From NCBI RefSeq assembly GCF_028641065.1, contig NC_073383.1, positions 20,088,001-20,152,000 of the forward strand: a DNA stretch of 64,000 nucleotides, in the 5' to 3' direction. Numbering within the stretch: position 1 is the stretch's first letter; every line of letters begins with the position of its first letter. Below the pieces are notes generated by a model, which made no database searches, was not told where the DNA came from, and saw nothing but the letters and a program-made list of their open reading frames with translations. Shown piece after piece: positions 835 to 60,800 of the stretch. Both the position numbers and the translations under genes were made by a program. The DNA comes from Leucoraja erinacea (taxonomy: Eukaryota).

Positions 835-1035
835 ATCTTATTACTCTTTGTTCTTTGTATTAAAATATCCCAAATATTCTGGGGTATGCTCTTAGTAAGA
901 AGAATTGAAGTTATAATCACTTTGAAGTGATATGTTTTGTGATTATGCATATGAACATATGCTTTTTGTCTCATCTTCGTTACTTCTTATGAATATCTTC
1001 TAAATGTATTCTTCATGGCATCTTGATTTTTATAG

Positions 1036-10300: not shown

Positions 10301-13300
10301 TTTTGAAGTACAGAATGAGTTCGGACACAGCAGCTGCACAACTTCATTGACAGTGCTAGGTTGGTGATTTTCTATGTGTTGAAATTATTGATAGTACATT
10401 TTTATAATAGCAGCTGAAAGGGTTCAATATAATTTTAAGAGTCTAAGAAGATTATACTTTAAATACTTTTAAATCAAATTTATGTGTTCAACTTATATTG
10501 TCTTCTGAATCCACACAAAATGTATAACCAAAATCCTAATTTTAACGGATTTCGGTTATAGAGCACAGACCCCTGACTCGCATCACCTACCCAGCCGCCT
10601 AGAGCACAGGTTTCCGAGGGTCCTTGTCCGACGTAAGCCCTTCTTCGCCCACCCCGTGGTCCGGGTTATACTGCTGTTGTTGTGGCTCATGTAGCCCTGG
10701 GAACCATGCATTCTTCAGTCCGCCGCCACCTACAGGATGCGCTCGTTCACCATGGGGCTCACTCCCCTCTCACCTGCAGCTGCTTCTTCCATTTGGCGTT
10801 GGCTTTGTCCACTCCCTGCACAACCGCTGCTTCCTACTCCCATCGCTCTTACTCGGCCTCTCCGTAACACCTCCCCCCCCACTCTGGACCTCCGTCTCCT
10901 CCTCCCTTGAAGTCGCTGACAGACTCCACATTAGAAGCATTTATTGAGCTTTTATTGTCATTGGCAGCAGCCTGGAGAGAGAGCTGCACCCAGGGGCTAC
11001 AACATGAGCCACAATGAACTGTTGAAGAAGGGCCTGCTGGTGTAGAATAGTAGTATCGGCACCTAGTTTTAAGGTGAAGCGACACAAAGTGCTGGAGTAA
11101 CTCAGTAGACTGAATCTGTCTGAAGAAGGGTCTTGATATCACCTATCTGTGATCTCCAGCGAAGCTGCGTGACCTGCTGAATTACTCCAGCACTTTGTGT
11201 GCTTTTGTGTATTAACCATCATCTGCAGTTCTTTGTTTCAACTACATATAATTATAACACCTTGCTCGATTATGACGGAGAATTGGCAATATTGGACTTC
11301 ACCCCCCCCTCCCGATGGTCCGTTCCAGAGAAGGTTTACTGTGTATATAATGATCAGTACTGTCACAATTGTGCTCATCATTCAAGTGTTATTGAGTGGA
11401 GCATTTTTACCACCTCTCCTGCTCAATAGCTTATGGTATTCCATCGAATTACCAGTGTATCATGAGATCGGAAATTACATTACATCAGTTGACACACATT
11501 TAGGTCGCACTTCCACCTCTTACATTGTAATTCTGTTACCATCCAGTTTCTGATCGGGGGGATAACTCAAAAATCTTACAATGGATGTTTCAAGATTTTT
11601 ATTTTGTTCTGTGTTATACAGATCGGATAATTGCTCCATCTTTTACAAAAAGTTTAAAGAAAATGGATACTAATTTGGGATCCTTAATGCACATGGAGTG
11701 CAAAGTATCTGGTTCTCTTCCAATCAGCATATCTTGGTATAAAGATAACACAGAAATAATGACTAGTCACAAATATAACATTTCATTTGAAGAAAATGCT
11801 GCGTTTTTGGAGATCAAAGAACTTGAAATCACTGATGGTGGAAATTACTCTTGCAAAGCAACAAATGCTGCTGGAAGTAGTAAATGCAGTGGATTTCTAA
11901 CTGTAAAAGGTTTGAAGATACCCTTATTTTAATCAACTTCTGTGCTAATTTTTTTTGTTAAAATAGGCTGAAATTTGTTGGCTAAAAGCAGAGGCCCAGA
12001 ATCACTGCATTTATCTGTTTAAATGATCTGGACTCCATATAAACACAGGACCTGAGACTGTTAATTTCAATGGGCTTTGAAAGGCAATTTGCATTAGAAG
12101 GCAAATTGGCTGAGTTACTTGATTACTTAATGTTAGCTTAATACCTTTATTATCTCCCAGATATCTTTTAATTGTTTTCTTTTTTTAATTTATTTTATTA
12201 TTTCTGTAAACAGCTCAAAACTATTTAAGTCATTCGTGACCTTTACTGATGGCAGAGCTGTAGAGTGGGCTTTTGCTGCCTTTTCATGAATCATTGGCAG
12301 CTTTGCTATCATCCAAACCATGCCAGTGGAGTCTCGGATGCATCAGGCCAGCAAGTTATGTATTCCACATCCAGACAAATTAGTATGGATATGCAGTGAA
12401 ACCTGGGTGGGGGAATCAGATCTGCGATATTTCTCCCAATATTGTCCACTTCTTTGTTTTCTTTTCAATATAGATAAATTATACATATTTCAACTTCCTA
12501 AGATATTTTGACTTTGTGTTGAGTAACAAAGTGTTAGAGCAGTATAACTAATTTTAGAAGTATTAGTATTTTTACTTCTGTTTATCTTACTAAATAACAT
12601 TTTTTTAAATGACTTTTAGAACCACCGATCTTTATAGAAAAACCAGTGTCCCAAGATATTGTGCTTGGTTCTACGCTACAGTTTAAAAGCATTGTGAAAG
12701 GAACTCTTCCACTATTTGTTAAGTGGTTTAAGGATAATAGGGAATTGAAACCTGGCACAAGATGTTCGATCTGGAATGAAGAAACAACACACTTCTTTGA
12801 GCTAATTTCTACCAAAATTACTGATGCCGGTGTTTACAACTGTCAACTCGCCAATGAAGCTGGTTCAGTCATTAGTACTGCAAATGTATTCATCAAAGGT
12901 TTGCAATTTTTGTTAATTTCATTAGTAAATAAGTTCTGTGTTACATTTTTAACGCTGTTATTGATCCTTAGCTTTCTTACACTCAAAGATGAGTAACGTT
13001 TACCAGAAGGTGATTCCATAACCTTTGTCTACTTTATTTGACTTCGTAGTTCCACTATTCAAGTGTGCTACCTTTCATTTCTCAGAGCCTCCGATCTTTG
13101 TTACAAAATTACCTTCTTCATCAACTCTGAAGCAAGGAGAATTTGCACGTTTTGAGTGCAAAATTACTGGTTCACCTGAAATCACAGTAACATGGTATAG
13201 AAATAACCAAGATATTAGAACCAGTGACAAATATTCAATATCATTCCAAAACTCATTGGCAGTTCTTGAGATTGCTGATGTAAAGGAGGAAGATAGTGGA

Positions 13301-16300: not shown

Positions 16301-19300
16301 TTCAGAGCCTCCAGGTTTTATAGAAAAACCTATGTCTCAGGAAAGCTTACCAGGTTCCACGGTGCGGTTTAGAAGTGTTGTGAAAGGAACAGCTCCAATA
16401 ACTATAAAATGGCTGAAGGATGGCAGGGAACTGATGTCTGGAGCTGACTGTTTCATTTTAAGTGAAGGCTCAACCAGTTTACTTGAGTTGTTTTCAGCCA
16501 AAGTTTCCGATTCGGGTGACTATATTTGTGAAATCAGCAACAGAGTTGGCAGTATCACTTGTGCAGCAAGACTCTTTATCAAAGGTGTGCAATTTATCTG
16601 TGCTTGTTTCACCATTGTGGAATGTTTACATGTGGGCATGAACTTTTTGATTTGTTATATAATTTTCTCTTTGTTATTTTTATTGTTATTTTTTTGCGCT
16701 TTCTTTTGTTCTTTCGTTCGTGTTTTCTTTTGTTCTTTTTGCATTGTCCACGTGGTTTTCTTTATGTTGAATGGATTCATCTTGGACACTTGTATGTATA
16801 GTTACATTTACAACGTTCTTTTCTACAGAGCCTCCATATTTTATTATGAAGTTAGAACCATCAGCAATATTTAAAAAAGGAGATACAGCAAGCTTTCAGT
16901 GTAAAATAACTGGCACACCTGAAATTAAAGTCACTTGGTTCAAGAATCAACATGAAATTAGTTTCAATGAAAAATATGAAATGTCATTTGTTGATTCTGT
17001 GGCATTCTTAGAGATTGTTGATGTAAGCTTGGATGACACAGGGAATTATTACTGTAAAGCCGAAAATGAAGCTGGCAGTGACTCTTGTGACATTGCGGTC
17101 ACAGTTAAAGGTGTGTAAAAATTCTCAGTTAATTGTTATCATTGGTCCACCATCTTTTTCCAGTCATATTGCAAAAACATTTAATTATGGAATAATGAGA
17201 ACCTTGACATAAGGAGCTGATTCTTATAAATTTTTGATTGGTACATTTATCATCTAATTGTTCATTTTTGATTCTGATGGATCCATAAAATAAGATATGA
17301 ATATTTTCTATAATGTTAAAAAATGATTTGATTTATCAATAGGAAGCTGGCTGAAGCAGTCCAGACTTCTGTTAGAAACATAGAAAATAGGAGCAAGAGT
17401 AGGCCATTCGGCTCTTCGAGCCAGCACTGCCATTCAATATGATCATGGCTGATCATCCAGAATCAGTAACCCGTTCCTGCTTTCTCCCCATATCACTTGA
17501 TTCCGTTAGCCCTAAGATCTATATCCAACTCTCTCTTGAATACATCACAACATCAGGACCTTTAGGTGATTTACTAAAGTTAGACACAAAACCTCTCCTT
17601 GCCGCTGAAACCCTCTAATCCAAGCATCATTCTGGTAAACCTAAGATAGACACAAAATGCTGGAGTAACTCAGCGGGTCAGGCATCATCTCTGGAGAAAA
17701 GGAATAGGTGCCGTTTCGGGTCGAGACCCTTCTTCAGAATGAGTCAGGGGAAAGGGAAACTAGATATATAGACGGTTTTATACATAGAAAAACTATACAT
17801 AGTTGGATGCCTTGGCATATTTTGAGTTATGGGTATCCCATCCATGAACTTTGAGGCTCAGAGTTTCTTTGGAGGCCAAAAGAAGTTCCATTTTTTCATT
17901 TTTGCCTCCACTCAGCCAGGTTCCACCAACTCTGGTTGAAAATGTCTTCCACAGATCTCGGCTAAATATCTTATTCTTTACCCAAAATCTTTGCTCTGTA
18001 GTTTTAGATAACTGCTATGTGAAAAATGTCCTACTATTTATCCAATCCATGCCCGTCATAACATTGAACATCATTATGAACCCCTACGTCCCCAGCCTCT
18101 TTTGCTCCAAGGAAGAGAAAAAATCACTCTATTCAATGTCCTGATAGCTGAAACACTCCATCCAAAGAAACATCTCTGTCAATTTTCTCTGCGCCATCCT
18201 TAGATAGTAACGCACCAGAACTGTGCCTCTGCTCTGGCTGGGACCTAACCAGTTCCACCAAAATATCTCTGCTCTTGTATCACGTCCTAGTTAATGAAGC
18301 CAAGTATTAAATATGCCACTTCAAGAATCCTTAGATTTGTACATTGAGATCTCTCTATTTTTAGTTCTCCCATCAGGTATATTCATTGCATTCCATATGT
18401 CCTGCCCTTTATTAGCCCTTCCAAGGTGCATCACCCAGACTCAGCAGTATTATGCTATTGTATTTATCCATTGGCAGTTGCAATGGGCATGCTGCTCCGG
18501 AGATCATTAAATTGTTATTTTAATCGTTTATGCATTGTAACATTCTTGCTGCCAATGGCTTTTTATGAGAGACATTGTGTAAACTTGGAAAAAGTGGGCT
18601 GTGATTCGTAAATCATGATATCATGTTTACTCTTCAGAACCTCCCACATTTACAAAGGAACTTGAACCTGTTGAGGTAGTTAAAGCCAGTGATGTTATTC
18701 TTGAATGTGAGGTGGCTGGTACAGCTCCTTTTGAAGTTTTGTGGTATAAGGACAATAAACAAATACGGCGAAGCAAAAAATACAAAATGATCTCTGACAG
18801 TTCTTTGGTCAGTCTTTGCATTCTAACGTCTGATGGCTCGGATGTTGGGGAATACAAGTGCATGGTAAAGAATGATGTGGGAAGTTGTTCCAGTAGTTCT
18901 GCAGTCAATTTGAAAGGTCAGTTCTAAGAAGTAATCGTAACTAGATGTTGTTTGATATTTATTCAATTATGTAATATTGTATGTTTCAAAGCAGAATATT
19001 TTAAATGATTAAATATCAGTAGTTTCATTTTAAGTTATAACCTGGTATATTCTCTTTACTTTAAACTAGAGCGACCAGCCTTCGTGCAAACAATAGAAAA
19101 TGCAACAGTATTTTCTGGAAATTCTGCTGTATTTCAATGTCTTGTAAGAGGCTCAGTTCCTATTATTACAAGCTGGAGAAAAGATGACAAACGTATCAAA
19201 GAGGATGATAATATTAAAATTTCCTTTCAAAACAATATGGCCACATTACAGATCGTCAAGGCTGAAGAAAATCACAGTGGAAATTATATTTGTCAGGCAA

Positions 19301-37300: not shown

Positions 37301-40300
37301 CCCGTTCCCCCAACACAATATTCCACCACTCACCTGTTCCCCCAACGCAACCCGTTCCACCAACGCAATATCCTACCGCTCACCCGCCCCCAACTGCACA
37401 GGTGCGACAGATTCCCACTCATTCCCCAGCACTCCCTCCCCCGGGTCCTGTTCCCCAATGCAATATTCCACCACTCACCCGTTCCCCCAATGCATTTGCT
37501 CCACCAACGCAATATTCCACCACTCACCAATACCCCCCCCCATCTGCGCAGGTGCGGCTCATTTCACCTCATCCCCAGCACTCCCCTTCCTCTTCTTCAC
37601 CCTCCCTCTTTTTAAATTTTAAAACATTTACTTTTTACTTTTAAAAATACAATTCTCCTTCCCCTGCCCCTGCCCATTACAAAGTTACAAATGACAGGAC
37701 TCAGTGTCCTGTCAATTGTACCATTTTAACGGGATAAAATGTGAATAACTTGTAAAGTAAAACATGAATCTGAACAAATCTTTGGTACACAACACCACAG
37801 GGCAATGGTGAGTATGGTGGTCCAAAATTTGTAGTGCTATCGTGTACTGTTTTGCCATAATTTCAGGATCACACACACATACACACACACACACACACAC
37901 ACTCACAGACATAATAACAAACAAGATGAGAGTTTTAGTAATATATATTACTAGACCAAGTGGTACCAGTTGCGTCCCGTTCCCCCAACACAATATTCCA
38001 CCACTCATCCGTTCCCCCAACACAACCCATTCCACCAACACAATATTCCATCACTCACCCATAGCCCCCAACTGTGCAGGTGCGGCTCATTTCCCCTCAT
38101 CCCCAGCACTTCCTCCCCCTCCTCTTCACCCTCCCTCTTTTTAAGTTTTAAAAGATTGACTAAAATCCAATTCAACTACCCCTGCCCCTGCCCCTGCCCG
38201 TTACAATGTTACAAATGACAGGACTCAGTGTCCTGTCATTTGTAACATTGCAAAGGCAGGGGCAGATAAAGTGCAATTGAATTTTTTTGTGAAAAGTTAA
38301 ATTTTTAAAGTTTAAAATGTGAATAACTTGTAAAATATATCTGAACAAAACTTTGATATACCATACCACAGGACGCTGGTGAATAAGGTCATCCAAATAT
38401 TGTAGCGCTATCATGTACAGTTTTGGCGTAATTTCAGGATCACACTCATCACAGCCAAACAGACAGACAAACAGACAAAATCACAGACATAATAACAAAC
38501 AAGAGGAGAGTTTTAATAATGTATAGATGTGGGTAACATCATTTTGCTGGAGTTACAAGTATATATTTTTGCAACTGTTTTCCTCTCTATCTTCACCAGA
38601 ACCAGCAGTATTCCAGAAAAAATTGAAAGATTCTATTGTGATACTGGGAAAATCAGTTTGTCTTGACTGCATATACTCTGGTACCCCAGAAATCAAAGTA
38701 CATTGGAAGAAGAATGGGTTAGATATAGTCCAGTCTGAAAAGCATATTATAACTACCACTGAAACCTCTTGTATTTTGGAGATTCTCAACACCATCAGAG
38801 ACGATGGTGCAACATATATGTGTGAAGTAGAAAATGATGCTGGAACTGACACTTGTCATGCTGAAGTGAACATATTGGGTTTGTTTCCTTTCAATTTCTT
38901 TTAGCTGCAGATTAAAAATCAAAGCTTTTCTCGTTTCTTTAAAAAAATATTTGATGTACATTTTCTTCAATCACTGATACGTTTTTTTTCTTCTTAGAAC
39001 CACCAACATTTGTCCAAAATTTAGAGCCTCTGGAAATAACAGTTGGTGATTCAGGATCTTTTCAATGCACACTTAGTGGAACACCTGAAATTAAAGTAGC
39101 TTGGTACAAAGGAGACACAAAACTGAGAGCCACCCCAAATTGCAAAATGGAATTTGTAAACAATATTGCAAAATTGGAATTGAAGAAAGTAACAATGAAT
39201 GACTGTGGAGAATTTATGTGCAAAGCTGAAAACAAAATAGGTGTATGTTCATCAAAGGCGGTGTTCACTGTACAAGGTGATGTTCTTTGGTAGATTAATT
39301 GGTATTTGTGGAGAATGTATATATTTATGCTGGAGCTCTTTGAACTTTTAAAGCTTTATAATCTCATTATATTAATTCATTCCATTCCGGTTTATTTTAC
39401 AGAACGCAAAACGGCACCTTCTTTTGTAAGAAAACTTAAGAATATGGAAGTAACTCTTGGTCTTCCAATAACATTCGAGTGTTGCACGACTGGTTCAGCT
39501 CCTATTGAAACTTCTTGGTTTAAGGATGGTATAAAACTGCTCCCTGGAGAAAACTTAAATATATCTTTCATGGAGAATGTAGCATCTCTTCAAATTCTTA
39601 AAACCGAGTTGGATCATGCTGGTGAATACAGTTGCAAAGCATCTAACATAATAGGAGATGCTTCATGCAGTTCCAGATTAATTCTTAAAGGTAAAATGGG
39701 TTAAATAATTACTAATTTGACTTCTTCAATGTTATAATATTGACATTTTAGTATCTGCTTTCATCTAACATTGCTAGATGTTAGTACAGTGTACCTTGCT
39801 GTTTATACTTTTACAATCAAATATAATTATATTTTTGTTATGTCTTTAGAGCCTAGAGTTGCCCCTGTATTTGACAAAAGATTACAACCAGTGGAAGTTA
39901 CAGCTGGGCAAAGTGTGGATCTTGAATGCCACTTAACTGGCTCTCCACCAGTTAAAGTTACTTGGTTGAAGGATGGCAAAGAGATGCGATCAGGTGGCAA
40001 TTACAAGATATCTTATGTTGAAAATACACCTCACCTAATTATTCTGAAAGCAGACAAGGGAGATGCTTGTCAATACATTTGTGAGGCCAGCAATGATATT
40101 GGAAAGGATTCATGCGAAACTGACGTGACTGTGAAAGGTATCAATCAATAACAAATACAACTCTTTATATATACTCTGAGAGCCCAGACTTAACTAATTT
40201 CAAAGGGTAATGTTTTTTTCACATCTTCAATATGATTCGCACTGGTTACTTGTTCAAGAAAGATTGCAGATGCTGGAAAAATCGAAGGTAGACAAAAATG

Positions 40301-43300
40301 CTGGAGAAACTCAGTGGGTGAGGCAGCATCTATGGAGCTAAGGAATAGCTATTCCTTTGCTCCATAGATGCTGCCTCACCCGCTGAATTTCTCCAGCATT
40401 TTTGTCTACCTTACTGGTTACTTGGTCAATTTTTATTATGTTGTCCATGTGCAATTTTTATTTTGCTTTTCCTGAATACATTTGAAGACACTTAAAAAAT
40501 AATCAAACTTTGTAAAATAGTCAAAGGTAGTGGAATTATTTTAATGCTGATCTTCAAATATGTATTTTACTGTCATATCAGTCTGAAAAATTAATTTCCT
40601 GAGGCATATTATTAGTTTTCAACAACCAAAACAATATGAGGTTTACAATTAGGAGAACAAAATAGCCTGTTCCCCCATTAAAGAAGAACAAAGTTTAACT
40701 TTTCTATTGACTTCAATTTCCTGCACCTTCCCATAACTCTTCATTTCAATGGACCCAATAAGCATTGACCTTGGTCTTGAATATATTCAGTTTTCAAGCA
40801 ATTACATTTGTCCTGTGAAAGAATAATATCACAAAATAATTTAGAAATATATAGATAGATCATATTATGTTAATCTGCCCACTTGCCTGAATCAGCCCTT
40901 AACAGGGTCTAATGTAGAGAGCCTACCTTAATGGTTCTCTACCTATTGAGTAGGAAGCATTCTATGGAACAGTAAGGATGCTCTAAGGAACTCTTGCCAA
41001 CTGACAAAATTGGGAGTGGTGCTTTACTGGCTATATTAGTTGTAATTGACCTTTTTCATTTAAAAAGTGTCTGATATTCAGAGACTGTTAAAATAAACCT
41101 ACTGGAATAGGTGATTATTTTAAAAAAAGGGATGAACAAAGTCATCAAGCAAACATAAAACTACCTTAAAACAATTAAAAACAAATTTAATGGTAATGCA
41201 TGCCTCTTTACTGCCTTAATTTTTTTCTCTACAATCCCTATTAAAAGTATTAGGATATCAGAATTTTCACAAAATTAGATCTTGTGCCTGATCTAAGAAC
41301 CGACTTCCCGACCATAAATGTGTTGAAAACCCATGGTAAAGTTAACTATTCATAAGTCCACATCAATAAGTCCACAGATGTTGACAATGCACCTCCATTT
41401 CAAAGACTAAAGGGCCTGTCCCACTTGGGCGTCATTTGTGCGCCATTTATGCTACATCATTTACGTGCCACGATGCATGGCGCGTGGCGTGCATGTTGCG
41501 TGGTGAGGTGTGGTGGCATAGGCGCGGTGATGCGCGGTAGCGCGCGGCGCCCCAGGATTTGGGGATTCTCAAAATCCTCGCCCGCCACCTGCGTGATGCG
41601 CAAATGACGCCCAAGTGGGACAGGCCCTTAATTGGAAACTGTCCCAGTTAGCAAAAGTTAGCATGCTTCAGCAAGCTGGTTGTTTAAGATATTCATAGTG
41701 CTACTCCTGTCTGTTACAGATCGTAAAGTTCCACCAAGCTTTACTAAAAAACCTATTGAAACAATACAGGAAACAGAAGGGAAATTTATAAAAATTGAAG
41801 CTCGTGTTTCTGGTTCACAACCATTGTCTATAACTTGGTTCAAAGATGAGCAAGAGATCTTGCAATCTGAAAATTATGAACTATCTTTTAAAAATAATAT
41901 AGTAATATTGAACATCAAGAATGCACAGCATTCTGATTCTGGTGTTTATACATGTGAAGCATCCAATGAAACAGGCACTGCAAAGTTTAATGTGACTGTA
42001 CTGATCCAAGGTTAGTAATGGCTACTTGTGATTACAAAGGTCGGGGAAGCTTATACCTGTAAATTTCATTGTTTGTTTGTAAAATAATTGCACTATTTTC
42101 AAAATCTTGATATTATTCAGTTATAAGAAGCATGCAATGAGTATTATTCTAATTTCCAGTTGCCTGCTGTCAGTTGTTTTTACCCATATCCATTTAGTTT
42201 TTGTCTTTCAACTAACAATAGAGAATCTATACAATCAGTCTTCATTATCAGTCTGACGAAGGGTCTCGACCCAAAACGTCACTCATTCCTTCTCTCCAGA
42301 GATGCTGCCAGTTTACCCCCAGCTTTTTGTGTCTATCTTCATTATTAGTGTATTTGCTCTCCATCTAATCATAATGTTGTCCCCTATCTTAATTATTTTT
42401 GGACAAATATCAGTGTGCATATATATATATTGAGGCACAATCAATGTATAAATATAGTGATAAAACCAGGCCACTTTGACCAAGTAGCTCCCTGCTATGC
42501 TCTGTTCTACTATGATGCAGTGTTCGCTCACACAGTTGCATCATGTGACTTCAAATTTTGCAAGTATAATCGCATTCAATTGAAGTAACTAATATCATTG
42601 GCTTATAGGTATTTAAACAAACTGATGCGAGTGAATGTTTTTAGAACATTATAGGGTAAATGTATGTTTATTTGGAGAGTTATATTAAAGAGAGTGCCTT
42701 AGTGATGTTCACATTTTTTGTTATACTTGGGAAGTCCCTGCAACCTATCACTTGTGAATAATGAAGACAGTGCAGAAGTTCAGTCAGAGATGCTGAGACA
42801 GGTAAATGCAGTGCATTGTGCACACTGACGGGCAGGAACTGTCTGAGATAATATTAAGCTTTGCAAGTGATTTGTCATGGGTGGAGGTTACAACCGGGCA
42901 AAGTGTGGACCTTGAATGCCATTTAATTGGCTCTCCTCCAATTAAAGTTACTTGGCTGAAAGATGACAAAGAGATTTTCTTATGAGCCTATGCTTTATGA
43001 ATTTCACAGGAGAATGTTTCTTTTGCAATCTCAAAATTATGCTAACAAATCATGGTCAGTTTTTATTTTGCATGTAGAATTCTTATTTTGGCTTTCCTGG
43101 TAACAGCTTAAAAAACAAATCTATGAAAAGTAATATAACAAAATAGAGGTAATATTTTAATATCATTAATTCTTTATTTTGTTAACGTATCAGTTTCTAT
43201 TTATTTCCTGATGTGTATGCTTAATTTTTAAGAACCAAGAATGAAAGCAAGATGAGGGCATACAGTCTGCTCCATCAGTTAATAAGAAAAAGGCTGAACT

Positions 43301-46300
43301 TATGTATCTCATCCAATTTCCTGTCCAATTTCTTAGTCCTCTTTGTTTTGAAAGTGCCCAGTGCAGGTTATCCCTACATTACGAGGGGAGGTGGGAGTTG
43401 TTGCCATATTGGTATTTTGGTATTTTCCAGTATGTGATGCTGCAAAACTTTGGGTGGTGATTAGTGAATTCAGTAAGGACAAATTTTCACAACATGGCAA
43501 GAGCTGCTTGTAATTTGTACGCCTTAGCCGTGAATGTATACAGTGAGTGGGCGAGTGATCACATTTCAGTCATAAAGTATAATATCACTGAAAAAATAAA
43601 AAATATCTAAGGATCCGATTATCTAATCTGGTTCCTACCTAATTTGCTGTTGCTTTAACCAGGGTCCAAAACAAAGATCCTATCCTAATGATATTCCACA
43701 CTGTGGAGTCCAGCAGCATTCGTATTCGATTGTTCAAAAAAAGAGGCCCTTTTCTGGAAACGTGCTATCAGCTGGCAACAGGTTTTACCAACTGAAGTGC
43801 TTGTCAATTATTTTATTAGTTTTTAATTGGCAGACATTTAAAGGTAGATTAAAAACTGTTAAATTGAAGTAAATAATGAATTATTTAAAAAAAACATTTT
43901 AATCGTAAAATAATTAAAAAATATAAATGTTACCTAAAACACATCAAAGCACTCAAAAGAACTAAAGGAAATACAAAATTAAAAATGACAATTTTAGCTA
44001 CAAACCTTTCGCTCTGCAATTCTCGTTAAAATGAACATTGTGTCAGATCTTGCAGCAAGTCTGAACCTTGCCCATGATCCAAGAAACAACTTCCCCAACA
44101 TAATGTCAAATTCTGCTTCTTGGGTTGAGCATTACAGTGAACGAACAAGAAGTTCATGTTAATACTCTGGAAACTGAAAAGTATAATTTCAATGATTGAC
44201 TACCAATTGTTCAAGCGAAAACATCAGTAAAAGTCAGTTTACCTTAGGCCGGTTAGTTCTATATGATATTCACAATGCTACTTCTTTCTGTTGCAGATTA
44301 TTTAATTCCACCAAACTTTACCAAAAAACCTCATCAAACAATACAGGAATCAGAAGGACAATCCATAAAAATTGAAGCCCGTGTTTCAGGTTCACAACCA
44401 TTATCTATAACCTGGTTCAAAGATGAGCAAGAAATTTTGCAAACTGAAAATTACATATTATTATTTAAAAATAATGTAGTACAATTGAACATTAAGAAAG
44501 CACAGCTTGCTGACTGTGGTGTCTATACATGTGAAGCATCCAATGAAGCAGGCACTGCAGAAGTTAATGTGTCTGTTCTGATTCAAGGTTAGTGAAAGGA
44601 TTAGTTATTGTAAGGGTTACAAATGCTTTTGTTTCTTCAGTCATATTTATTGGTATTTGTGTTTAAGTATTGTTAGAAATATATTCCTTTTAAGATACAA
44701 AACCCAAAAGGCAAAGTGATTAATCCATGGTTCACAAGAGAAATTGAAGACATTATCAAATAAAATGAAGAGCCTTATATACATGACAGAAATTTCAGTA
44801 AGCTTGAAAATTGTGAGCATTTTAGAACTTAGTAAAGCTAGGTTCAGTAAAGAAATTGATCAAGAAAGACAACATGGATTTGTGAGTAGACTGTAAAGAA
44901 ACATAAAAATGGATTCTAAAGACATTGAAGGTTAGGTTAAAAAAAATATGGCAAAATGTGGGCCTTTACAGACTGAGGGAGCAGAAATTTATATTGGGAA
45001 ATAAGGAAATGGAAGAGACACTTTGCACCTGTCTTCATAAAAGAAGATACACAACCTATAATAGAGTGTCCAGCAAAAATGCAGGACTGAAAGCACAGTA
45101 TTACAGTATTGGACAAGAAAAAGTACTAAAAGAGTCAGTGAACTTGAAAGATGATAAATACAAAGGAACGGATGATCTACATCTTTTTTGAGATTTGAAG
45201 GAAGTGGATTTAGAAGCAAGGATTCTGAAGAAGGGTCTCGACCCAAAACATCACCCATTCCTTCTCTCCAGAGATACTGCCTAGTCCTGCTGAGTTACTG
45301 CAGCAACCTTAGAAGCAGGGATAGTTCTGCTTATCATTTTTTACAGCTGAATTCTGGGCCTAGTGCTATGGATTGGAGAGTAGCAAATATGGCATAACTA
45401 TGTAAGAAAGGAGAGTGAGAGGAACAGGGTACTACTGTTAGCCTAACATCGGTGGTAGAAAAAGTACCGGAAACGACATTGAAAGATTTAATAACAGAAC
45501 ACCTTGAGAAGGATAATCAATAAGGATTTATGAAAGGAAAATTATATTTGACTAATTCACTGGACTTCTTTAAGGATGTGACCAGTAGAATAGATAAAGA
45601 CAAACGAGTGGATTAGATTTATGCTTTCATTAAGGCAGTTGGTCAATAAGATCAGAGCACATGGATTTTAGAGTAATATGATGACATGGATTGAGAATTA
45701 ATTATCGGACAGAAAGCAAGGGATGTGAATCAACAGTTCTTTCTCAGGTTGACAGGCTTCAATTAGGTAGTAGCACTATCCAGTAATAACACTACAACTG
45801 ATGCTTGGGCACCAGCTATTCACAATCTATATCAGCAATTTGGGTGAGGGGCCAAACACTGAATTCCAAAATTTGTTGATGATAGTAAACTAGGGGAGAT
45901 TGTGTTCATTGGACTATGTCATATGGGGAAGCTATGTACGAGCTGAAAGAGCGGGCATGAATGTTGCAAGTGGAATATAATGTGGAAAGGTGTGAGGTCA
46001 TCCATTGTGGCGAACGTAGCAGATAAGTAGAGTATTTGTTAAATTGAGAGAGATTGAGTGGTATTAATGATCAATGGGACCTGTGTGTGCTTGTACAAAG
46101 CCACTGAAGACCAACATGCAAGAGTAGCATGTGATGGGGTTAGCCTTCACAATGGGAGAATTGCATCACAGGAGTAAGGAACTCTTATTGCAATTGTATA
46201 GTTGGTGAAATCGCACCTGAAGAATTGGTTACAGTTTTGATCTCCTTACTCAACAAAGGTGTACTTGCCAAAGAGAGAATGAAAGAAAAATTCACTAAAC

Positions 46301-49300: not shown

Positions 49301-52300
49301 TTTTGTTGAATCCAAGAAGCAATTTCCCCAACTTAAATGACAGTAAGATGGAACATTAGTTGAACTGCCATTTCATTGGCGGCAGATCCAATTGAAACTA
49401 CTGTACTGACAAAAGTTAGCATGATCCAGGCCCATTAGAATTGTCTGATATTTATAATGCTACTCTTTTCTCCAACAGATCGTAAAATTCCACCAAGCTT
49501 TACTAAAAAACCTCTTGAAACAATACAGGATTCAGAAGGAAAATCTATAAAAATTGAAGCTCGTGCTTCAGGTTCACAACCATTATCTGTAACCTGGTTC
49601 AAAGATGAGCAAGAGATCTTGGAAACTGGAAATTATGAATTATCCTTTAAAAATAATCTTGTCATTTTGAACATTAAGAAAGCACAGATTGTTGATTCTG
49701 GTATCTACATATGTGAAGTGGCGAATGATGCAGGCACAGCAAAGTTTAATGTGTCCGTACTAATCAAAGGTCAGTGATGGATATTCATCATTATATGGAA
49801 TGGGGAAGTTTACACTGGCAAATTCTGTTTTGTTGAATCGTTTTTTGTTTAGTCTTGATACCATTTATTATTCTAATGTCGAATGGACATTCTTAAATCT
49901 TTGCACGTTGTTAACTTTTCTTGTACAGATTTTTTGAAAGTCTGCCTTTTAATCAATAACGCTGTGGAAATTATATAGAAATTATATGTTGTTCATTTTT
50001 CAGAGTTTGTGTATTGGTAAGGCCAGCATTTATGGTGCATCCCCAATGTCACTTTTTAGGTTGTGGTGAGTAATGTTCTTGAGGAACTCTAGCTAGTCTC
50101 ATTCTGCCATTGACAGGGGCATCGTACTATGTCATCTACTTTTTGTTGTTGGCCACTTTTCATCATTTCCTGGATAGGTCATAGAAACATAGAAAATAGG
50201 TGCAGGAGGAGGTCATTCGGCCCTTCGAGCCAGCACCGCCATTTATTGTGATCGCAGCTGATCGTCCCCAATCAATAACCCGTGCCTGCCTTCTCCCCAT
50301 ATCCCTTGATTCCACTAGCCCCTAGGTCAGTAGTTGAAATTCTGTGTAGTGGATGAGTTCTAAAGGATAACATAAATGTATTGCCTGACAAAAATGCATA
50401 TATCCCTTGCATTATTGAAGGCCATTTATAATATTGAGCAAGTCTGCCGCTAAGCTGAAAAGAAAAATGGATTGTCTGGAAATGGCAAAATCTCAAGGGG
50501 AAGAGGGAATAAAAGTGATAATGAAATTTTAATGTATTAACTATTGACATTTATTTTGTTTTAGAACTGAAGAAACCACCTGTCTTTGATATTCCACTTA
50601 AACCAATGACAATAACAGAAGGAGAGTTATTGCAGCTAAAATGTCATGTTCATGGGTCGGAACCAATTAATGTCCAATGGTTCAAAGATAGGAAAGAAAT
50701 AAAACCATCTGAAAAACTGAACATGACTTTCATAGATGGCACAGCCACAGTTGAAATTAAAACAGTTGCCAAAACAGATAGTGGTGACTTCCTGTGTAAA
50801 GCCACAAATGAGGCTGGAACTGACAATTCCAAAGCCAAGCTAACAATCCAAGGTATGAATTAAATTGTTATTTGTTATGATGCGAGTGATGTATGGATGC
50901 CACAAATTTGTAAAATCATGGTTTGCTAAACATTCAACTTCTTGAACTTTTATGTATTAAGGCAAAATTGAAGTTGCCTTGAGATACAGTATCTTTATTG
51001 TATTGAAAGACAAAGGAAGATTCCTCGGTCATGTAGTTTTGATCTTGATGGATGAAACAACCAACAATCAATGATCATATTTATGAAATGAATTCAATTC
51101 ACAAATTGAATTCATAAACTAATTGTGCCACATGTCGTTCCTTGACTTGATGATTCTAAAGAGTAATCATATATAGTCTTTATGCCGACTGGTTAGCATG
51201 CAACAAAAAAGCTTTTCACTGTACCTCGGTACATGTGGCAATAAACTAAACTAAACCAGATGGTGTAACTGCATAGGCCAAGACCCCTTTGCTGTTTTGT
51301 GATACCTAATAAAAAAAGAACATTGCCTCGTGCTTATGAATTCATAAAGAACTATTATGACATTATTGCATTTTTTGACCTGATTTTTAATCACAATTTG
51401 TTTTTACTTGTTGTTAGATAGCCAATGTGGTTTATTACTGAGCTAATGCATTTTATATTCTGTGTCATAGAGAAGACAGATTTATATTTAATTGTAGCTC
51501 TGTTCATTACAAAGCTCAATATCATCGCTTCTATGTTTCAATACTTACTAAATGTTTTTCATATTGCAGCAGAAATCTTTTTTTAGTTGCAATACCGAAG
51601 AATTTTATGTTCTTTTTGTTTGCTAAGCATAAAACAAAACATAACTAATTCTTGTTATGAAATGTTGATGCATATAATTTTAAAGCATGAGATATATCAT
51701 ATAAGTAATTATTAACATGTTCACAGTAGTACAATTTCATGTTCAAGTGTAATTATTTTTTATATACCTTGATGAATTATTTGTATATCGATAACTGGTG
51801 GACACATATGTCCACTACACATATATATCAAAATAGATAAGAGCGCAATATTTTTGATTTGTAAAACATGGGGGTAGGTCTGCCCACCACCTTCTTACAA
51901 TTAATGTAATTACAATGTGTAGCTATTGTGTTGGTACAACCACAAAGACCCAATTGCCTTTCTGAATGGGAATTTATATGACTGCAAATGTAATTTTGCA
52001 TATAACCCAACATGTCCCAGCCATTGCCAAGTCGTAACAAATATATGGATGTGTGGCTGATTCCTTATTCTCATTAATTGAATCTTTCTCTATTGTTCCT
52101 GAATGGCTTTATCAATAATATCTATATTAATTAAATATTACAATTAGATCCACACCACGATAGAAAGATGGGGAAAGAAATACTTGAATTGTAACTATGT
52201 AGAGAAAATGCGTGAGTTTTATGCCAAACGATGTACTGATGTGAATTTGTAAAATTGCAATCTGTTGGGGATTCAAGAGTGGTACAATGATTATTTTAAA

Positions 52301-55300
52301 TATTAATTGCTAAAATCCAATAGGTAGTGTTTGGTTCAGAGGTTAAAGTGCACAACATCAGGAGCATTTTGAACGTACCCTCTTCCATTTTTATGGGAGA
52401 TAGGATAAAGGACAAGGAGGTGGCCCTAGAAATCATGGCTGCATTGGTGATCATTTTCCAATGTTCTCTCAACTTTGGATCAGTTCCTGTGGACTGGAGG
52501 GTATATCGATAACTGGTGGACACGTATGTCAATGTAACCGCACTGTTTAAGAAAGGAGGGATAGAGATCGGTCAAAGTGACAGGATCGGTCAAAGTCAGC
52601 ATGATTAATGAAGGGAAAACCATGCATCACTAATCTTGCGGAATTGTTTGAGGATGTAACAAGTATAATGGATAAGGGAAAGCCAGTGGATGTGGTGTAT
52701 CTGGACTTTCAAAAAGCCTTTGACAGAGTCCCACACTAGAGATTAGTGTGCAAAATTAGAGCACATGATATCGGGGTAGGGTATTGACATGGATTGATTG
52801 GCAGTCAGGAAGCAAACAGTAGGAATTAATGGGTCCTTTTCAGAATGGCAGGCAGTGACTAGTAGTGTGCCACAGGGCTCGGTGCTGGGACCCCAGTTAT
52901 TTACAACGATTTAGACGAGGGAATTAAATATGACATCTCCCAAGTTTGCGGATAACACAACGCTGGGTGGCAGTATGAGCTGCGATGAGGATGTTTTGAG
53001 GCTGAAGGGTGACTTGGGTAGGTTGGGTGAGTGGGCAGATGCATGGCAGATGCAGTATAATGTGGATAAATGTGACGTTATCCACTTTGGTGGCAGAACA
53101 GGAAGGCATATTATTATCTAAATGGTGTCAGATTAGGAAAAGGGGAGGTGGAACGAGATCTGGCTGTGCTTGTAAATCAGTCACTGAAAGTAAGCATGCA
53201 GGTACAGCAGGCAGTGAAGAAAGTTATTGGCCTTCATTGCGGGAGGATTTGAGTTTAAAAGCACGGAGGTCCTGTTATAGTTGAACAGGGCCCTGGTACG
53301 ACCGCACCAGGAGTATTGTGTGCAATTTTGATCTCCTAATTTGAGGAAAGACATTATTGATATTGAGGGAATGCAGCGTGGGTTCACCGGGTTAATTCTT
53401 GGGATGGCAAGCTGACATATGATGAAAGAATGGGTTGACTGGGCTTGTGTTCATTGGAATTTAGAAGGATGAGAGGATATCTTATAGAAACATATACAAT
53501 TCTTAAAGGATTGGACAAGCTAGATGCAGGAAAAATATTCCCGATGTTGGGTCAGGGGTCACAGTTTAAGAATAAGGGGTAGGCCATTTAGGACTGAGAT
53601 GAGGAAAAACTTCTTAACCCAGAGAGTTGTGAACCTGTGGAATTCTCTGCCACAGAAAACAGTGTGGGCCAATTCACTGGACGTTTTCAAGCGAGAGTTA
53701 GATTTAGCTCTTAGGGCTAAAGGAATCAAGGGATATGGGGAAAAAGCAGGAATGGGGTACTGATTTTAGATGATCAGCCATGATCATATTGAATGGTGGT
53801 GCTGACTTGAAGGGCTGAATAGCCTACTCCTGCACCTATGTTTCTATGTTCAGCACAAACATGGTGGGCCGAAGGGCCTATTCCCATGCTGTACTGTTCC
53901 ATGTTCCATGGTCTTTCATACAGGGCATGCATCAGAATAAATTAGCGATTTGCATTTCTAATATACAATATATGCAATATATCTTCATAAGCACAGTAAT
54001 AACTTTTTAAACTTTATATTTTAGTAACCTAATTCTACATCGCATGAAAAAATCCTGTCATCATTGCAAAGATAAATTAGCAATGAGGGCAAATGAACAA
54101 TCCATTCTTCCAAATTGTCCTTGCTTGTGGTTCATCTAGTCAATTAAAATTATATTGAACTGGTCTGTACTTTCAAATCTGAATTTTTGTCAAAGGTGCA
54201 ATGATGTCAGGTGAATTCAAAAATATTCAAAAAAGAGGTAATGATACAAAATTGAACGTGAATGGACAAAATAGGAATGGTCAACCTGTGAATATGATTT
54301 AGATGGACCATTGATTGAAAAGAAATGAGATGAAATATAAAGTCAAATGGCTTACCATTTCCACATAAAGAAAATCATAACATTATTCTAAATATGTTGC
54401 AAATATATTATCAACCCTGATTGTTGAATTGATGATCAGTATTTAGATCAGAGATGAATTAAACCATGAATTATAAGATGGAGATCTATATGCAAGTATT
54501 ACTTTTTATAATTATAGAAACATAGAAAATAGGTGCAGGAGTAGGCCATTCGGCCCTTCGAGCCTGCACCGCCATTCAATATGATCATGGCTGATCATCC
54601 AACTCAGTATCCTGTTCCTGCCTTCTCTCCATACCCCCTGATCCCCTTAGCCACAAGGGCCACATCTAACTCCCTCTTAAATATAGCCAATGAACTGTGG
54701 CCTCAACTACCCTCTGTGGCAGAGAGTTCTAGAGATTCACCACTCTGTGTGTGAAAAAAGTTCTTCTCATCTCGGTTTTAAAGGATTTCCCCCTTATCTT
54801 TAAGCTGTGACCCCTTGTCCTGGACTTCCCCAACATTGGGAACAATCTTCCTGCATCTAGCCTGTCCAACCCCTTAAGAATTTTGTAAGTTTCTATAAGA
54901 TCCCCCCTCAATCTTCTAAATTCTAGCGAGTACAAACCGAGTCTATCCAGTCTTTCTTCATCTGAAAGTCCTGACATCCCAGGAATCAGTCTGGTGAACC
55001 TTCTCTGTACTCCCTCTATGGCAAGAATGTCTTTCCTCAGATTAGGAGACCAAAACTGTACACAATACTCCAGGTGTGGTCTCACCAAGACCCTGTACAA
55101 TTGCAGTAGAACCTCCGTGGTTCTATGGTGGTATACAGAGGTTCATGCAATGTAAATCTAAACTGAGGAACTGACCTGATCACATACTTAAGTATAAGAA
55201 AACTCTCTGGAATATAAAGTTGTGCTCTTCCTCTCAGGGTATAGGTCAGGCAAAATCGACAAATTTACATTGGCATAGAAACTATTTTGTACCACAATCA

Positions 55301-57780: not shown

Positions 57781-57830
<50 letters not shown>

Positions 57831-60800
57831 TATATTTTAATTTCTAAATGTTGTTTGGAAACTTTTGAACTCATCTAATTTACTTAAATCGGTTTGTGTT
57901 CTCCAGAACCTATTGTTGAACAGCATCTTGAAAATCTTTCCGGAAAGGAAGGCCATATTTGTATCATGGTTTGCCAGTTTTCCTTACCAAATCTAAAAAC
58001 TGAGTGGTTTAAAAATGGGAGGAGAATTGAGGGGCAGGCCAGATATTCCATAGATGTTGTGGATAAGTTGCAGAAAGTCACTATTAGTGACTTGAAACCA
58101 GAGGACCAAGGCCGATTTACTTGCAGGTTTGAAGATCAAGAGACAACTGCTGATTTGAATGTTCAAGGTTTGTAGCTCTATAAAATGGGGTTATTCTAAT
58201 CGTATTTTGAGAGTGGATTTTTAATATGAATTTTTGTTTTTGTTTTTATGTGTTATAGCTCACCCAATTGAATTCACAAAGACAATTCAGGATATTGTAG
58301 TGAAAGAACATGAGTCAGCTGTGTTTGAGTGTGAAGTGTCTTTTGATGATGCCATTGTAACCTGGTTTAAAGATACGGTGGTGCTGAAAGAAAGTGCAAA
58401 ATACAGCTTCAGAAGAGTAGGGCGCCGGCATTTTATGACTATCCATAGTGTCACAACAGAAGACGAAGGTTTGTTCATTGTCATAATTTAATCTTATTTC
58501 CATTACTGTGGTTATTTATTTTGTTTTTTACCTCCTGAGGCTAACTTGCAGTGAGCCAAAATGAATCAGAGAAATTATGTTAAATTTAATTTGAACCTTG
58601 ATCAGCACTGAGAAGTACAAAAATGATTTACAAAATGAAGGCAGAACTTGTTATCGGAATAAGAAAGAATGACTAAGTGTAACGAGTGACCCGATAGAGG
58701 TATTCGGAAGTAAGTAAGAAGAATATAAATAATGGATAAGATGTCGTATGTGAGGAATTCCAAAATAGAAGCCATTAGAATAATCAAATAAGGAGATTGG
58801 GAGAAGTTCTTTACATATAAGTCTTGAAATTTGTTACCACCTCCCTTGACATCATTAAGGCCTTTTGTTTCAGTGCTATATGTATTATGCAATTCTATGA
58901 AATACTATTTTCCATTGAAATATAGATAAATATCATAGTACAAAATTAATTTCTTTAGGTGTTTATTCTGTAATTGCTCAACTTGAACCAAGGGGTGAAG
59001 CTAAAAGTACTGCAGAACTCTACGTATCAAGTCAAGGTAGGAACATTTGACAATTAAAAAAAATTCAGTGATACAGTAATGTTTCTTTAACTAATATATC
59101 ATTTAAAATCTGATTATTACAGAAATCAATTTACAGCAAAGGAAAACTGGTATGTATTCATACAAATTTCATATTCCTATTATCAAATTTTCAGTAAGGT
59201 AGGGATAAATTATGAACAGTATTAGTTCTATTTGTCATCTATTTTTGTTTACCTTTTCTCAAAATAATGGAAATTTAATATTTTGCTAAAAATCATTCAA
59301 AAATATAGAGAAAATAAATCCACATGATCAACAAGTAAAAAATCTTGCTTTTGTATTCTTTAGATGTTCCTGATATTGGAATTCCATTAGAAAGAAAACC
59401 ATCTCCAGGTAAAACTTAGGAATCTTACTTAGGAATCTAACATCAAATACATTTGGCCTCAACTGAAACATTTATTGTATTGTAATTTGGATAGAAAGCA
59501 GCTATTGATAGGATACTACTGTACCAATTAGATGAATAAATGTGCCCAATGTACTTTGGCATATTAGGTACTGGTAGTATGGGCAAGACTAGTGGAAGGG
59601 AATTGGGATTATAAAGAAATTATAAATTCTGCCATTTTCCTTATTTCCAGTTAACTACCAAAGAAGGCCAAGTAATTGAGTATTTTAAAAGTGGAGACTG
59701 ATAGGTTTTTGATTAATAAGGGCGCTAAAGGTTACAGGGAGAAGGTGGGAGAATAGGGTTGAGAGAGAAAACTATATCAGCCATGATCGAATGGCGGAAC
59801 AGGCTAAATGGCCTAATTCTGCTCCCATGTCTTAACAACTAATTATCTATCTGCATTTCTTTAGTGTCTTTGGTCTTTGGCCTTCTTGCACCCCTTACAC
59901 ACTTCAATCTCAGTTGACAAGTAATGGTTGCAGAACTTTCTTAAAACAAGGCAAGAGATGTATTTAGATGATGACATTGTAGGATTCTCGGTGTAGAAGC
60001 TGCAGTTAATGATTGCATTTTCTCAAAACATGTACTGTATTGCACAAGTTTGAAAGATGACACCAAAAATTGGTTGGCATCAGGGGTGGATGGTTGCTGC
60101 CGCCTTGAGAGAGAATATATAAGTTCATGCTTCGTACACCTACTGCTACTCTGTCCAACCAGCACCCCAGCAATCGTAGTAAATCTGTCAGAGATATGAT
60201 TGTTAACTTTACATGCATAGCAATGGCTGGCCTTGTTCTTCCACTCGAAGTCTCTGAGTCATTACTGCTGTTACTACTTTAGAAGAAGCAGCATTGCCCT
60301 TTTAAATGTTGAATTGTGATTGGACCTGAAAGCTGCTCATGGGATGGTCCACTACTTCAATTCTGGAAAGTATGGAGTCTAATTCAGCATAAAAATTTGG
60401 TACATTGGTGCATGCACATCAACATTTGCAATGATTTTCCGTCATTGTTCTCTTTGGGTTAAATATTTCATTAGATATGCCCTTCAACCATTAAAGAGTG
60501 ATGGGCGTGAATACATATTTTAACATCAAAGTCTATTCGTGCATTTGTAACTATCTGGGAATGGCGGCCTCTTTCTGCTTTCCAACTCCTCCACTAGGGC
60601 CGCAAATATAGTTCAAATGTTTGTTCCTTGCTCTCTCCCTGGCCATTCTTCACATTTGCTACATCAGCTTTACTCACAGGCTCAACACACATATTGATCC
60701 TCTTGGGTAGACACAGAATGCTGGAGTAACTCAACGGGATAGGCAGCATCTCTGGAGAGAAGGAATGGGTGACATTTCGGGTCGAGACCCTTCTTCAGAC

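What the first reader, a model, noticed from the sequence alone, without database searches (positions are those of the whole stretch)
11081..60800. Family of ~90-bp mobile elements that begin at a hammerhead-ribozyme-like core, scattered in titin introns
Seen: five copies (11118 +, 17642-17780 -, 42249-42335 +, 45224-45308 +, 60703-60800 -), plus core-less relatives at 40253 and 61125. Consensus is GT-CTGANGA-A-GGGTCTCGACCC-GAAAC-GTC-ACC(T/C)ATTCC...GAGTTACTCCAGCA. The three TSD-bounded copies (9, 10 and 14 bp TSDs) start within 1-4 nt of CTGA, so the unit seems to move by itself. Established: CUGANGA/stem II/GAAA/NUH is the hammerhead core; an extra A after A9 is tolerated (CChMVd viroid); minimal type I hammerheads with a palindromic stem III (AC-GU) that work as dimers are typical of Penelope-like elements and retrozymes. 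Inference: a non-autonomous, retrozyme-like element mobilised by a PLE RT such as the one at 1-834. Caveat: stem I is only 2-3 bp here, so cleavage activity is uncertain.
Basis: partly seen in the sequence, partly recalled or inferred. Interest (0 to 1): 0.75.

Follow-up and report, generated by a model that had tools for sequence, protein, structure and literature searches.

The report
Short end-stubs of Penelope jumping genes
These ~95-base repeats in titin introns are the end piece of a known kind of jumping gene (a Penelope-like element), present in very many copies across the genome, and most of them start just before a small, mostly decayed ribozyme motif, likely because copying runs off the front end of the element's RNA rather than because the ribozyme cuts there.

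Summary
The copies, the three TSDs and the minimal-hammerhead motif are real. The unit is not a separate retrozyme: it is the terminal ~95 nt (plus an optional ~37-nt tail) of Neptune/Nematis-type Penelope-like elements (PLEs). The RT gene at 1-834 runs off the window through a GIY-YIG domain and ends in this very unit; 15 of 20 RT-selected loci do the same; near-full-length PLEs also begin with it. In 790 kb of arbitrary regions there are 245 insertions (about 680,000 if extrapolated): 53 head-to-head, only 2 simple tandems. But it lies about 30 nt upstream of the cut site, which shows no peak (7 of 314). Short copies form no lineage of their own. Only 1 of 5 window copies keeps an intact core; stem I is 2 bp. 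Likely mechanism: internally primed reverse transcription of the PLE RNA's front end. The scan found this pattern before in other genomes.

The parts
1..834 (-). 5'-truncated, broken Penelope-like element (RT core and thumb). It continues left of the window (locus L031) through a Cys linker, GIY-YIG domain and ~110-nt pyrimidine-rich 3'UTR and ends in the same ~95-bp unit (L031:8877-8782, minus strand).
   Evidence: window:325-753 is 60% identical (79 of 132 aa) to P0002, an 889-aa RVT_1 + GIY-YIG protein
835..846 (-). Upstream copy of the 12-bp TSD of that PLE insertion; the other copy follows the unit in L031
   Evidence: read from the printed flanks
11081..11234 (.). Old head-to-head pair: short arm 11081-11105 (-), long arm 11117-11234 (+) with tail; GAAA box deleted; no TSD found
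17636..17790 (-). Copy extending upstream into a PLE 3'UTR, i.e. an ordinary 5'-truncated PLE end; NUH triplet broken; no TSD found; upstream limit approximate
40258..40412 (.). Head-to-head pair of core-less arms (subfamily B), one arm tailed; 17-bp TSD with one mismatch at 40241-40257 and 40413-40429
42249..42335 (+). Short copy starting at -3; G12 changed to A; internal deletion; 10-bp TSD
45224..45308 (+). Short copy starting at 0; G12 and stem III G changed to A; 3' end short (about +81); 14-bp TSD with one mismatch
60703..60800 (-). Short copy starting at -1; the only window copy with all core bases (stem III U-G); 9-bp TSD; no tail
61111..61152 (-). Core-less 3' fragment of the unit
1038..1316 (+). 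One of the titin Ig exons of the host gene (context only)

Best explanation
The unit is the terminal ~95 nt of Neptune/Nematis-type Penelope-like elements, and the short copies are likely by-products of the PLE's own enzyme, which would start copying at an internal site on the front end of the element's RNA and run off its 5' end just before the hammerhead core. Shown: the same unit ends PLE insertions and also begins near-full-length ones, followed by a ~37-nt tail and the start of the ORF; copies end at either about +94 or +132; 5' ends pile up at -3..+2; head-to-head pairs mostly join one tailed and one untailed arm inside one TSD. Inferred: (1) the two 3' ends are the two internal RT start sites measured for the anole PLE; (2) a dimeric enzyme primes both cut DNA strands, one at each site, giving the fold-back pairs; (3) the pile-up marks a transcription start (initiator-like TCAGT, mode at the A at -2) in the pLTR; (4) the RNA that is copied is uncut, so the hammerhead is a passenger in these copies and decays after insertion.
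For: Linkage: the window's own PLE ends in the unit with a 12-bp TSD; 15 of 20 RT-selected loci, the window's own included, carry it downstream on the same strand, 14 of them at 1.35-1.58 kb; 4 of 20 loci picked with the ORF's N-terminal part show unit-tail-ORF start. Two 3' ends: 153 hits end at +84..100, 101 at +119..132, 17 between, 43 shorter, of 314; this matches the two RT start sites and 30-40-nt tail of PMC11167929. Hotspot: of 170 hits reaching +8, 73 stop with unique flank, 49 in an inverted junction, 2 in a tandem, 46 run upstream; of 45 extended hits with a measured length, 18 end between 25 and 95 nt upstream, about 10% per 14 nt against about 73% at the hotspot (my arithmetic). 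First matching base in 66 non-inverted copies: -2 in 15, -1 in 11, 0 in 10, +1 in 8, +2 in 12, -3 in 2, -4 or beyond in 8. No peak at the cut: 7 of 314 hits start at +27..31, against 8 and 14 in the neighbouring 5-nt bins. Pairs: 33 of 43 have one tail, 1 has two (7.1 expected), chi-square p 1e-4; 21 of 43 have a TSD vs 47 of 1500 controls. No separate lineage. Decay: 63 of 170 cores intact; G12, in a CpG, kept in 71% like other CpG bases (69-75%). Literature: hammerhead mutants do not affect insertion in vitro (PMC11167929); the pLTR holds the transcription start and an internal promoter in D. virilis Penelope (PMC2377424).
Against: The transcription-start step has no direct support. No excess of a cap-derived G at the junction (16 vs 13.3 expected of 56, p 0.24). 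No pile-up of RNA ends in four RNA runs of another organism label (poly(A) or single-cell libraries swamped by passive copies, so weak either way). Of 10 copies that hold the ORF start and reach the core without inversion, 5 run further upstream (read by eye; one is the query, two are near-duplicates), so not all template RNAs start at -2. In D. virilis the start lies 46 nt before a 75-nt intron that ends at helix I, not at the core. The nearest-neighbour test rests on 80 nt of old copies and cannot exclude short master copies inside a subfamily. Classes are imperfect both ways (some 'extended' are nested or inverted copies, some 'unique' have short pyrimidine-rich extensions), and both arms of a pair are counted.
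Confidence: 0.7

Rival explanations
1. Same identity (PLE terminus), but the fixed 5' end is a stall or release point of the RT on a longer RNA (bound protein, RNA fold, or the new cDNA folding back on itself), not a transcription start.
For: Many templates run upstream of -2 (46 of 170 hits; 5 of 10). The predicted fold is a long hairpin whose base begins at position 0 and pairs with +45..48; G10 pairs downstream with mean probability 0.5-0.85 in the four subfamilies. Cap-G test negative.
Against: The hairpin is no more stable than shuffles (z -0.56, -0.03, +0.68). RTs usually pause at the 3' foot of a template hairpin, not after finishing it (my knowledge). The upstream limit is fairly sharp at the A of an initiator-like motif (15 at -2, 2 at -3).
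Confidence: 0.25
2. One reading: an independent non-autonomous, retrozyme- or SINE-like family in which short genomic copies are themselves transcribed and re-copied by PLE RT.
For: Short TSD-flanked copies are the largest class (73 of 170; TSDs). Penelope promoters are internal, so a stub that begins at the start site could in principle be transcribed. Unit-matching reads are about 0.46% of a poly(A) library of another organism label (59,591 of 12.9 million). Non-autonomous PLE derivatives exist (Xenopus retrozymes; Chlamys MRC1).
Against: No head-to-tail arrays (2 simple tandems of 245 events); no clustering of short copies; all four subfamilies have UTR-extended members; the reads lie on both strands about equally in the bulk libraries, as passive transcription would give; in the anole element the enzyme needs ORF sequence downstream of the start sites, which untailed stubs lack.
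Confidence: 0.12
3. The boundary is a 3' splice site: pyrimidine tract plus CAG just before the core, as in D. virilis Penelope where an intron ends at helix I; splicing or a splicing intermediate would set the end and could supply a better helix I.
For: All subfamilies keep a pyrimidine-rich stretch and CAG before the core despite unlike UTRs; precedent in PMC4209133; a donor-like site lies at +161.
Against: Most copies keep one to three bases of the would-be intron (36 of 46 that reach position 0 also match at -1); TSDs abut the start with no exon between (16 of 20 within -2..+5); no spliced junction among 179 core starts, tested against subfamily-A references only.
Confidence: 0.07
4. Hammerhead self-cleavage makes the RNA ends that define the element.
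For: Core boxes, the extra base after A9, G10.1-C11.1 and the palindromic stem III are kept in the majority sequence of all four subfamilies, so active lineages probably needed the motif.
Against: The cut would give 5' ends at +29: 7 of 314. Stem I is 2 bp or less in 53 of 57 descriptor hits; stem II has probability near 0 in the predicted ensemble (1 of 160 copies above 0.5). Published minimal hammerheads cleave poorly or only with protein.
Confidence: 0.03

Closest known systems
5'-truncated and inverted insertions of EN+ Penelope-like elements, Neptune/Nematis type (PMC8557442, passages; PMC3846280, passages)
   Same: RT then CX2-5CxxC linker then GIY-YIG with CCHH; pLTR; heavy 5' truncation; adjacent inverted truncated copy; one-sided 30-40-bp tail; variable TSDs; hammerhead in the pLTR.
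   Different: Here the bare ~95/132-nt stub is the main product (about 680,000 insertions if extrapolated, 3.4% of sampled bases), and 5' ends are concentrated at one spot; I found no paper stating that.
Minimal hammerheads (min-HHR) of metazoan PLE pLTRs (PMC4209133, results and discussion read)
   Same: Conserved boxes, extra base between 9 and 10.1, G10.1-C11.1, palindromic 15.2-16.2; mostly single, dispersed and 'probably related to truncated PLEs'.
   Different: Helix I is 2 bp (4-5 bp in S. mansoni; 2 bp has precedent in D. virilis) and helix II is 4 bp rather than 6-8.
Anole Poseidon element PAc (PMC11167929, main text read)
   Same: Hammerhead near the ORF start, two internal RT start sites bounding the tail, both DNA strands cut and extended, cleavage not needed for insertion.
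   Different: Different clade. In PAc the ORF starts inside the hammerhead; here the frame is open through the unit in subfamily A, but the first in-frame ATG lies at about +164, so the unit is probably 5'UTR.
Metazoan non-LTR retrozymes (PMC7229834, passages; bioRxiv 10.64898/2026.07.22.740005, parts 1-3 of 5)
   Same: Type I hammerhead, homology to PLE pLTRs, moved by PLE enzymes, many dispersed monomers.
   Different: Retrozymes are head-to-tail repeats (150-450 bp) with canonical hammerheads that yield circular RNA; here arrays are nearly absent, the motif is minimal, and the unit is the PLE end itself.

Membership tests
EN+ Penelope-like element (parent) | Single ORF with PLE-type RT followed by C-terminal GIY-YIG | tested here: met
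   Broken copies translate to RT and GIY-YIG in that order; 60% and 40% identity to P0002, which carries RVT_1 and a sub-threshold GIY-YIG match; P0006 passes both. Pfam found nothing in the three decayed pieces themselves.
EN+ Penelope-like element (parent) | CCHH motif with two Cys between GIY and YIG | tested here: met
   CxxC between LIY and YIG and two downstream His in translations of L031, L061, L065; definition.
Neptune/Nematis clades | CX2-5CxxC linker before the endonuclease | tested here: met
   C-x4-C-x2-C present in L031, L061, L065; definition.
Neptune/Nematis clades | Placement in the RT tree with named Neptune elements | not tested
   No named reference set was at hand; Neptune rather than Nematis rests on recall.
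EN+ Penelope-like element (insertion anatomy) | pLTR at both ends, optional 30-40-bp tail, inverted truncated copy, TSD | tested here: met
   (unit at both ends, e.g. L142).
Minimal type I hammerhead of PLEs | Core boxes, extra base after A9, G10.1-C11.1, palindromic stem III | tested here: met
   Majority of all four subfamilies; 57 descriptor hits vs 0 in shuffles; only 63 of 170 copies still intact.
Minimal type I hammerhead of PLEs | Helix I and II supported by two-sided compensatory change | tested here: inconclusive
   Common changes are one-sided (U-A to U-G at II.4 and I.1); the third pair of helix I forms in 27 of 160; predicted folds favour another hairpin.
Minimal type I hammerhead of PLEs | Self-cleavage after NUH | not testable with these tools
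   Needs an assay; genomic 5' ends and RNA reads show no peak at +29.
Non-LTR retrozyme | Head-to-tail tandem repeats, each with a hammerhead | tested here: not met
   2 simple tandems and 6 complex clusters among 245 events; 53 head-to-head.
Non-LTR retrozyme | Canonical type I hammerhead (6-bp helix I, loop contacts) | tested here: not met
   Stem I 2 bp or less in 53 of 57 hits.
Non-LTR retrozyme | Monomeric linear and circular RNAs | not testable with these tools
   Only poly(A) and single-cell libraries of another organism label were laid.
Independent non-autonomous PLE derivative | Own lineage of short copies apart from autonomous copies | tested here: inconclusive
   No clustering (0.444 vs 0.446 +/- 0.080, 147 copies), but low resolution.

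The most novel reading that the evidence does not exclude
The fixed start is the PLE's transcription start and the stubs carry its internal promoter, so part of this huge population re-copies itself as a promoter-plus-priming-site mini-element of a kind not yet described; and the chimeric loci (unit, tail, ORF start, then the end of a PLE of another subfamily, each with its own junction) record template jumps between RNAs, the missing step that would rebuild pseudo-LTRs.
Probability: 0.2. Interest if true: 0.6.

Novelty: new member of a known kind. Interest (0 to 1): 0.3.

Why it matters
As an object it is ordinary: dead PLE ends in introns, of a pattern in print since 2013-2014. Its use is as a very large natural record of PLE insertion, whose steps after priming are still open (PMC11167929, PMC8557442). 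Three measurable rules come out of it: a fixed 5' stop just before the hammerhead and not at its cut; one tailed plus one untailed arm in fold-back pairs; and one-off chimeric junctions between the ORF start and another PLE end. Each can be tested in the existing in vitro PLE system. It also warns annotators: about 3% of this genome is a ~100-bp repeat that could be filed as a SINE or retrozyme.

Tried and rejected
Rfam scan of the window at E<=10: no hammerhead model; the miRNA-like matches at 40285-40410 are the fold-back pair. Pfam on three decayed ORF pieces: 0 of 3 matched; identity came from homologues instead. Cleavage-defined 5' end: no peak. Cap-derived extra G: not enriched. Spliced copies joined at the CAG before the core: none among 179 starts, subfamily-A references only. 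Stable hammerhead fold in monomer or two-molecule folding of four real copies: not predicted; the competing hairpin is not better than shuffles. Shared breakpoints among the mini-PLE chimeras (an amplified deletion family): junctions differ in 20 of 22 loci, two being near-duplicates. My first idea that the unit encodes the first ~43 codons: the frame is open in subfamily A, but an in-frame ATG at about +164 and the short N-termini of homologues make 5'UTR more likely. Sequencing runs: no RNA holder was listed for the stretch; four raw RNA runs of another organism label showed no places where many molecules begin or end; only the top rows of the joint tables were visible. Look-up of earlier notes by sequence: nothing. 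Literature searches gave no paper on this family or on a fixed start at the core; Repbase, Dfam, subscription journals and the supplements of the bioRxiv preprint (which lists retrozyme families of one chondrichthyan) were not seen and may already hold it.
Full report
Numbering. Positions in the unit are counted from the C of CUGA (+1). The predicted hammerhead cut lies after +28, so a cut product would begin at +29.

1. The observation. The five copies and two core-less relatives are present, and the three TSDs are as stated. The host gene is titin. The motif is not chance: a minimal type I hammerhead descriptor hits 57 times in 1.10 Mb of fetched DNA and 0 times in three shuffles. In the window only the copy at 60703-60800 keeps all core bases; two have G12 changed to A, one has lost the U of the cleavage triplet, one the GAAA box. 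Two of the seven sites are head-to-head pairs; the one at 40258-40412 has a 17-bp TSD. Rfam reports no hammerhead at E<=10.

2. What it is. The RT at 1-834 (minus strand) continues past the left edge through a Cys linker, a GIY-YIG domain and a ~110-nt pyrimidine-rich UTR, and ends in this very unit; a 12-bp TSD encloses the ~2-kb insertion. Of 20 loci chosen only for the RT sequence, 15 (the window's own included) carry the unit downstream on the same strand, 14 at 1.35-1.58 kb and one at 1.0 kb; five do not within the fetched flank. Of 20 loci chosen for the N-terminal ORF region, 4 reach the 5' end, and there the order is unit, tail, ORF start; L142 has the unit at both ends. The ORF pieces are 60% and 40% identical to an 889-aa RT + GIY-YIG protein and show the CX2-5CxxC linker and CCHH motif that mark Neptune/Nematis PLEs. 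The unit is thus the distal part of the PLE pseudo-LTR. The genome is probably a cartilaginous fish; that rests on recall and on earlier scan notes about look-alike elements, not on a test.

3. Genome-wide anatomy. In 79 regions of 10 kb taken at round-number coordinates (790 kb) there are 314 hits forming 245 events: 183 single, 53 head-to-head, 2 tandem, 1 tail-to-tail, 6 complex; 3.4% of bases; about 680,000 events if extrapolated. 3' ends fall in two groups, +84..100 (153 hits) and +119..132 (101), with 17 between and 43 shorter: the optional 30-40-bp tail of PLEs. Of 170 hits that reach +8 (one more lacked flank), 73 stop there with unique flanks, 49 at an inverted junction, 2 in a tandem, and 46 run on upstream, mostly into one of several PLE UTRs (classes are imperfect both ways and both arms of a pair count). 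Among 45 extended hits with a measured length, 18 end between 25 and 95 nt upstream: about 10% per 14 nt, against about 73% at the hotspot. TSD scores >=7 occur in 20 of 64 short copies whose 3' end reaches +83 (9 of 73 dropped as shorter) versus 34 of 1500 controls, and 16 of the 20 abut the start within -2..+5. But only 7 of 314 hits begin at +27..31, no more than in neighbouring bins (8 and 14): the ribozyme cut does not set the end.

4. Not a separate family. Four subfamilies defined by diagnostic bases each hold short, inverted and extended copies (short/inverted/extended: A 23/24/14, B 10/2/7, C 13/9/14, D 26/9/9). The three nearest neighbours of a short copy are short in 44.4% of cases, against 44.6 +/- 8.0% after shuffling labels (147 copies). 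The test is coarse and cannot exclude short masters inside a subfamily. Head-to-tail arrays, the defining form of non-LTR retrozymes, are nearly absent.

5. The ribozyme. The majority of every subfamily keeps the boxes, the extra base after A9, G10.1-C11.1 and the palindromic stem III listed for PLE minimal hammerheads, so active lineages probably kept the motif. Inserted copies decay: 63 of 170 cores are intact, 31 with stems II and III as well, and G12 is lost at the rate of other CpG bases. Stem I is 2 bp or less in 53 of 57 hits; its third pair forms in 27 of 160. Folding programs favour a purine/pyrimidine hairpin from 0 to +48 over stem II, but that hairpin is no better than shuffles. 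Activity is untested; in the anole PLE cleavage needed protein and was not needed for insertion.

6. How it likely works. Established for the anole element in vitro: the enzyme cuts and extends both DNA strands and starts reverse transcription at two internal sites that bound the tail (PMC11167929). Inferred here: +94 and +132 are those sites. Priming on the downstream repeat of the RNA gives ordinary truncated PLEs. Priming on the upstream repeat gives a cDNA that reaches the RNA's 5' end after about 95 or 132 nt, hence the stubs. Priming from both cut strands gives fold-back pairs: 33 of 43 pairs with both arms reaching +83 (10 of 53 dropped) have exactly one tail and 1 has two, where 7.1 are expected (p 1e-4; three untailed pairs may be copies of one composite), and 21 of 43 sit in a TSD against 47 of 1500 controls. 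I ran this pair test after reading note e1-9987643; the one-sided tail is also in print (PMC3846280). The weakest step is why copying stops at -3..+2. The mode is the A of an initiator-like TCAGT (15 at -2, 2 at -3 of 66), and D. virilis Penelope starts transcription in its pLTR from an internal promoter. Against: no cap-derived G, no pile-up of RNA ends in runs of another organism label, and 5 of 10 ORF-start copies run further upstream. A stall on a longer RNA is the main rival; a splice-site explanation is less likely.

7. An extra class. Of 30 loci picked for the tail-to-ORF junction, 22 have a second unit 125-341 nt after the tail, often with a piece of UTR from another subfamily and with junctions that differ between loci except for one near-duplicate pair. 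They look like template jumps from the end of one cDNA onto another RNA; this is inference, and the query biased the breakpoints seen.

8. Comparison and novelty. It works like, and is a member of, the truncated and inverted insertions of EN+ PLEs (PMC8557442 and PMC3846280, passages seen). Dispersed single minimal hammerheads were already ascribed to truncated PLEs in 2014 (PMC4209133, results and discussion read). A 2026 preprint ties retrozymes to pLTRs, but defines them by tandem arrays (parts 1-3 of 5 read, supplements not seen). Seven literature searches found no description of this family or of the fixed start; repeat databases and subscription journals were out of reach. The scan's own notes report the same pattern in other genomes; my reading was fixed before I saw them, and they are not independent evidence.

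9. Verdict. Observation confirmed; interpretation partly supported. New member of a known kind; interest 0.3. Identity as a PLE terminus is near certain; the full mechanism including the transcription-start step is about even odds.

Noticed in passing
L159-L186 (22 of 30 loci), also L008: Mini-PLE chimeras: unit, tail, 125-340 nt of ORF start and spacer, then a second unit on the same strand, often preceded by 60-110 nt of 3'UTR from different subfamilies; junctions differ from locus to locus. They look like template jumps between RNAs. The query demanded coverage to about +270, which biases the breakpoints seen.
   Followed up: partly
L046:2640-3170 (-) and L073:7090-7540 (+): A unit nested inside another repeat, with 2-3 internal tandem copies of its ~65-nt 3' part; a join of this form is the commonest 'goes back' joint in the RNA reads.
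   Followed up: partly
unit positions -25..-1, +35..+49 and +161: Splice-like signals: pyrimidine tract plus CAG before the core, a second pyrimidine tract plus AG at about +47, and a donor-like site with an in-frame ATG at about +161..+166. Sense copies in titin introns (11118, 42249, 45224) may offer cryptic acceptors; untested.
   Followed up: partly
window 2351-3428, 7818-8130, 17372-17546, 26646-27104, 29412-29723, 50182-50355, 52812-53842, 54508-55125: A second, longer dispersed repeat family in the introns on both strands, some copies 95-98% alike; CR1-type LINE ends by recall, not tested.
   Followed up: no
window 38171-38281: A near-perfect palindrome of about 70-110 bp, unrelated to the unit.
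   Followed up: no
window 1000-51000: Titin Ig exons recur in blocks, 7-8 copies of the same exon types at 3-8 kb spacing, some 83-93% alike, suggesting duplications of the I-band super-repeat.
   Followed up: no
L055:1088-2308 vs P0001-P0033: The RT's closest longer relatives are 44-58% identical; the few named ones are from a sea anemone, a coral and a tick. Horizontal transfer was not tested.
   Followed up: no
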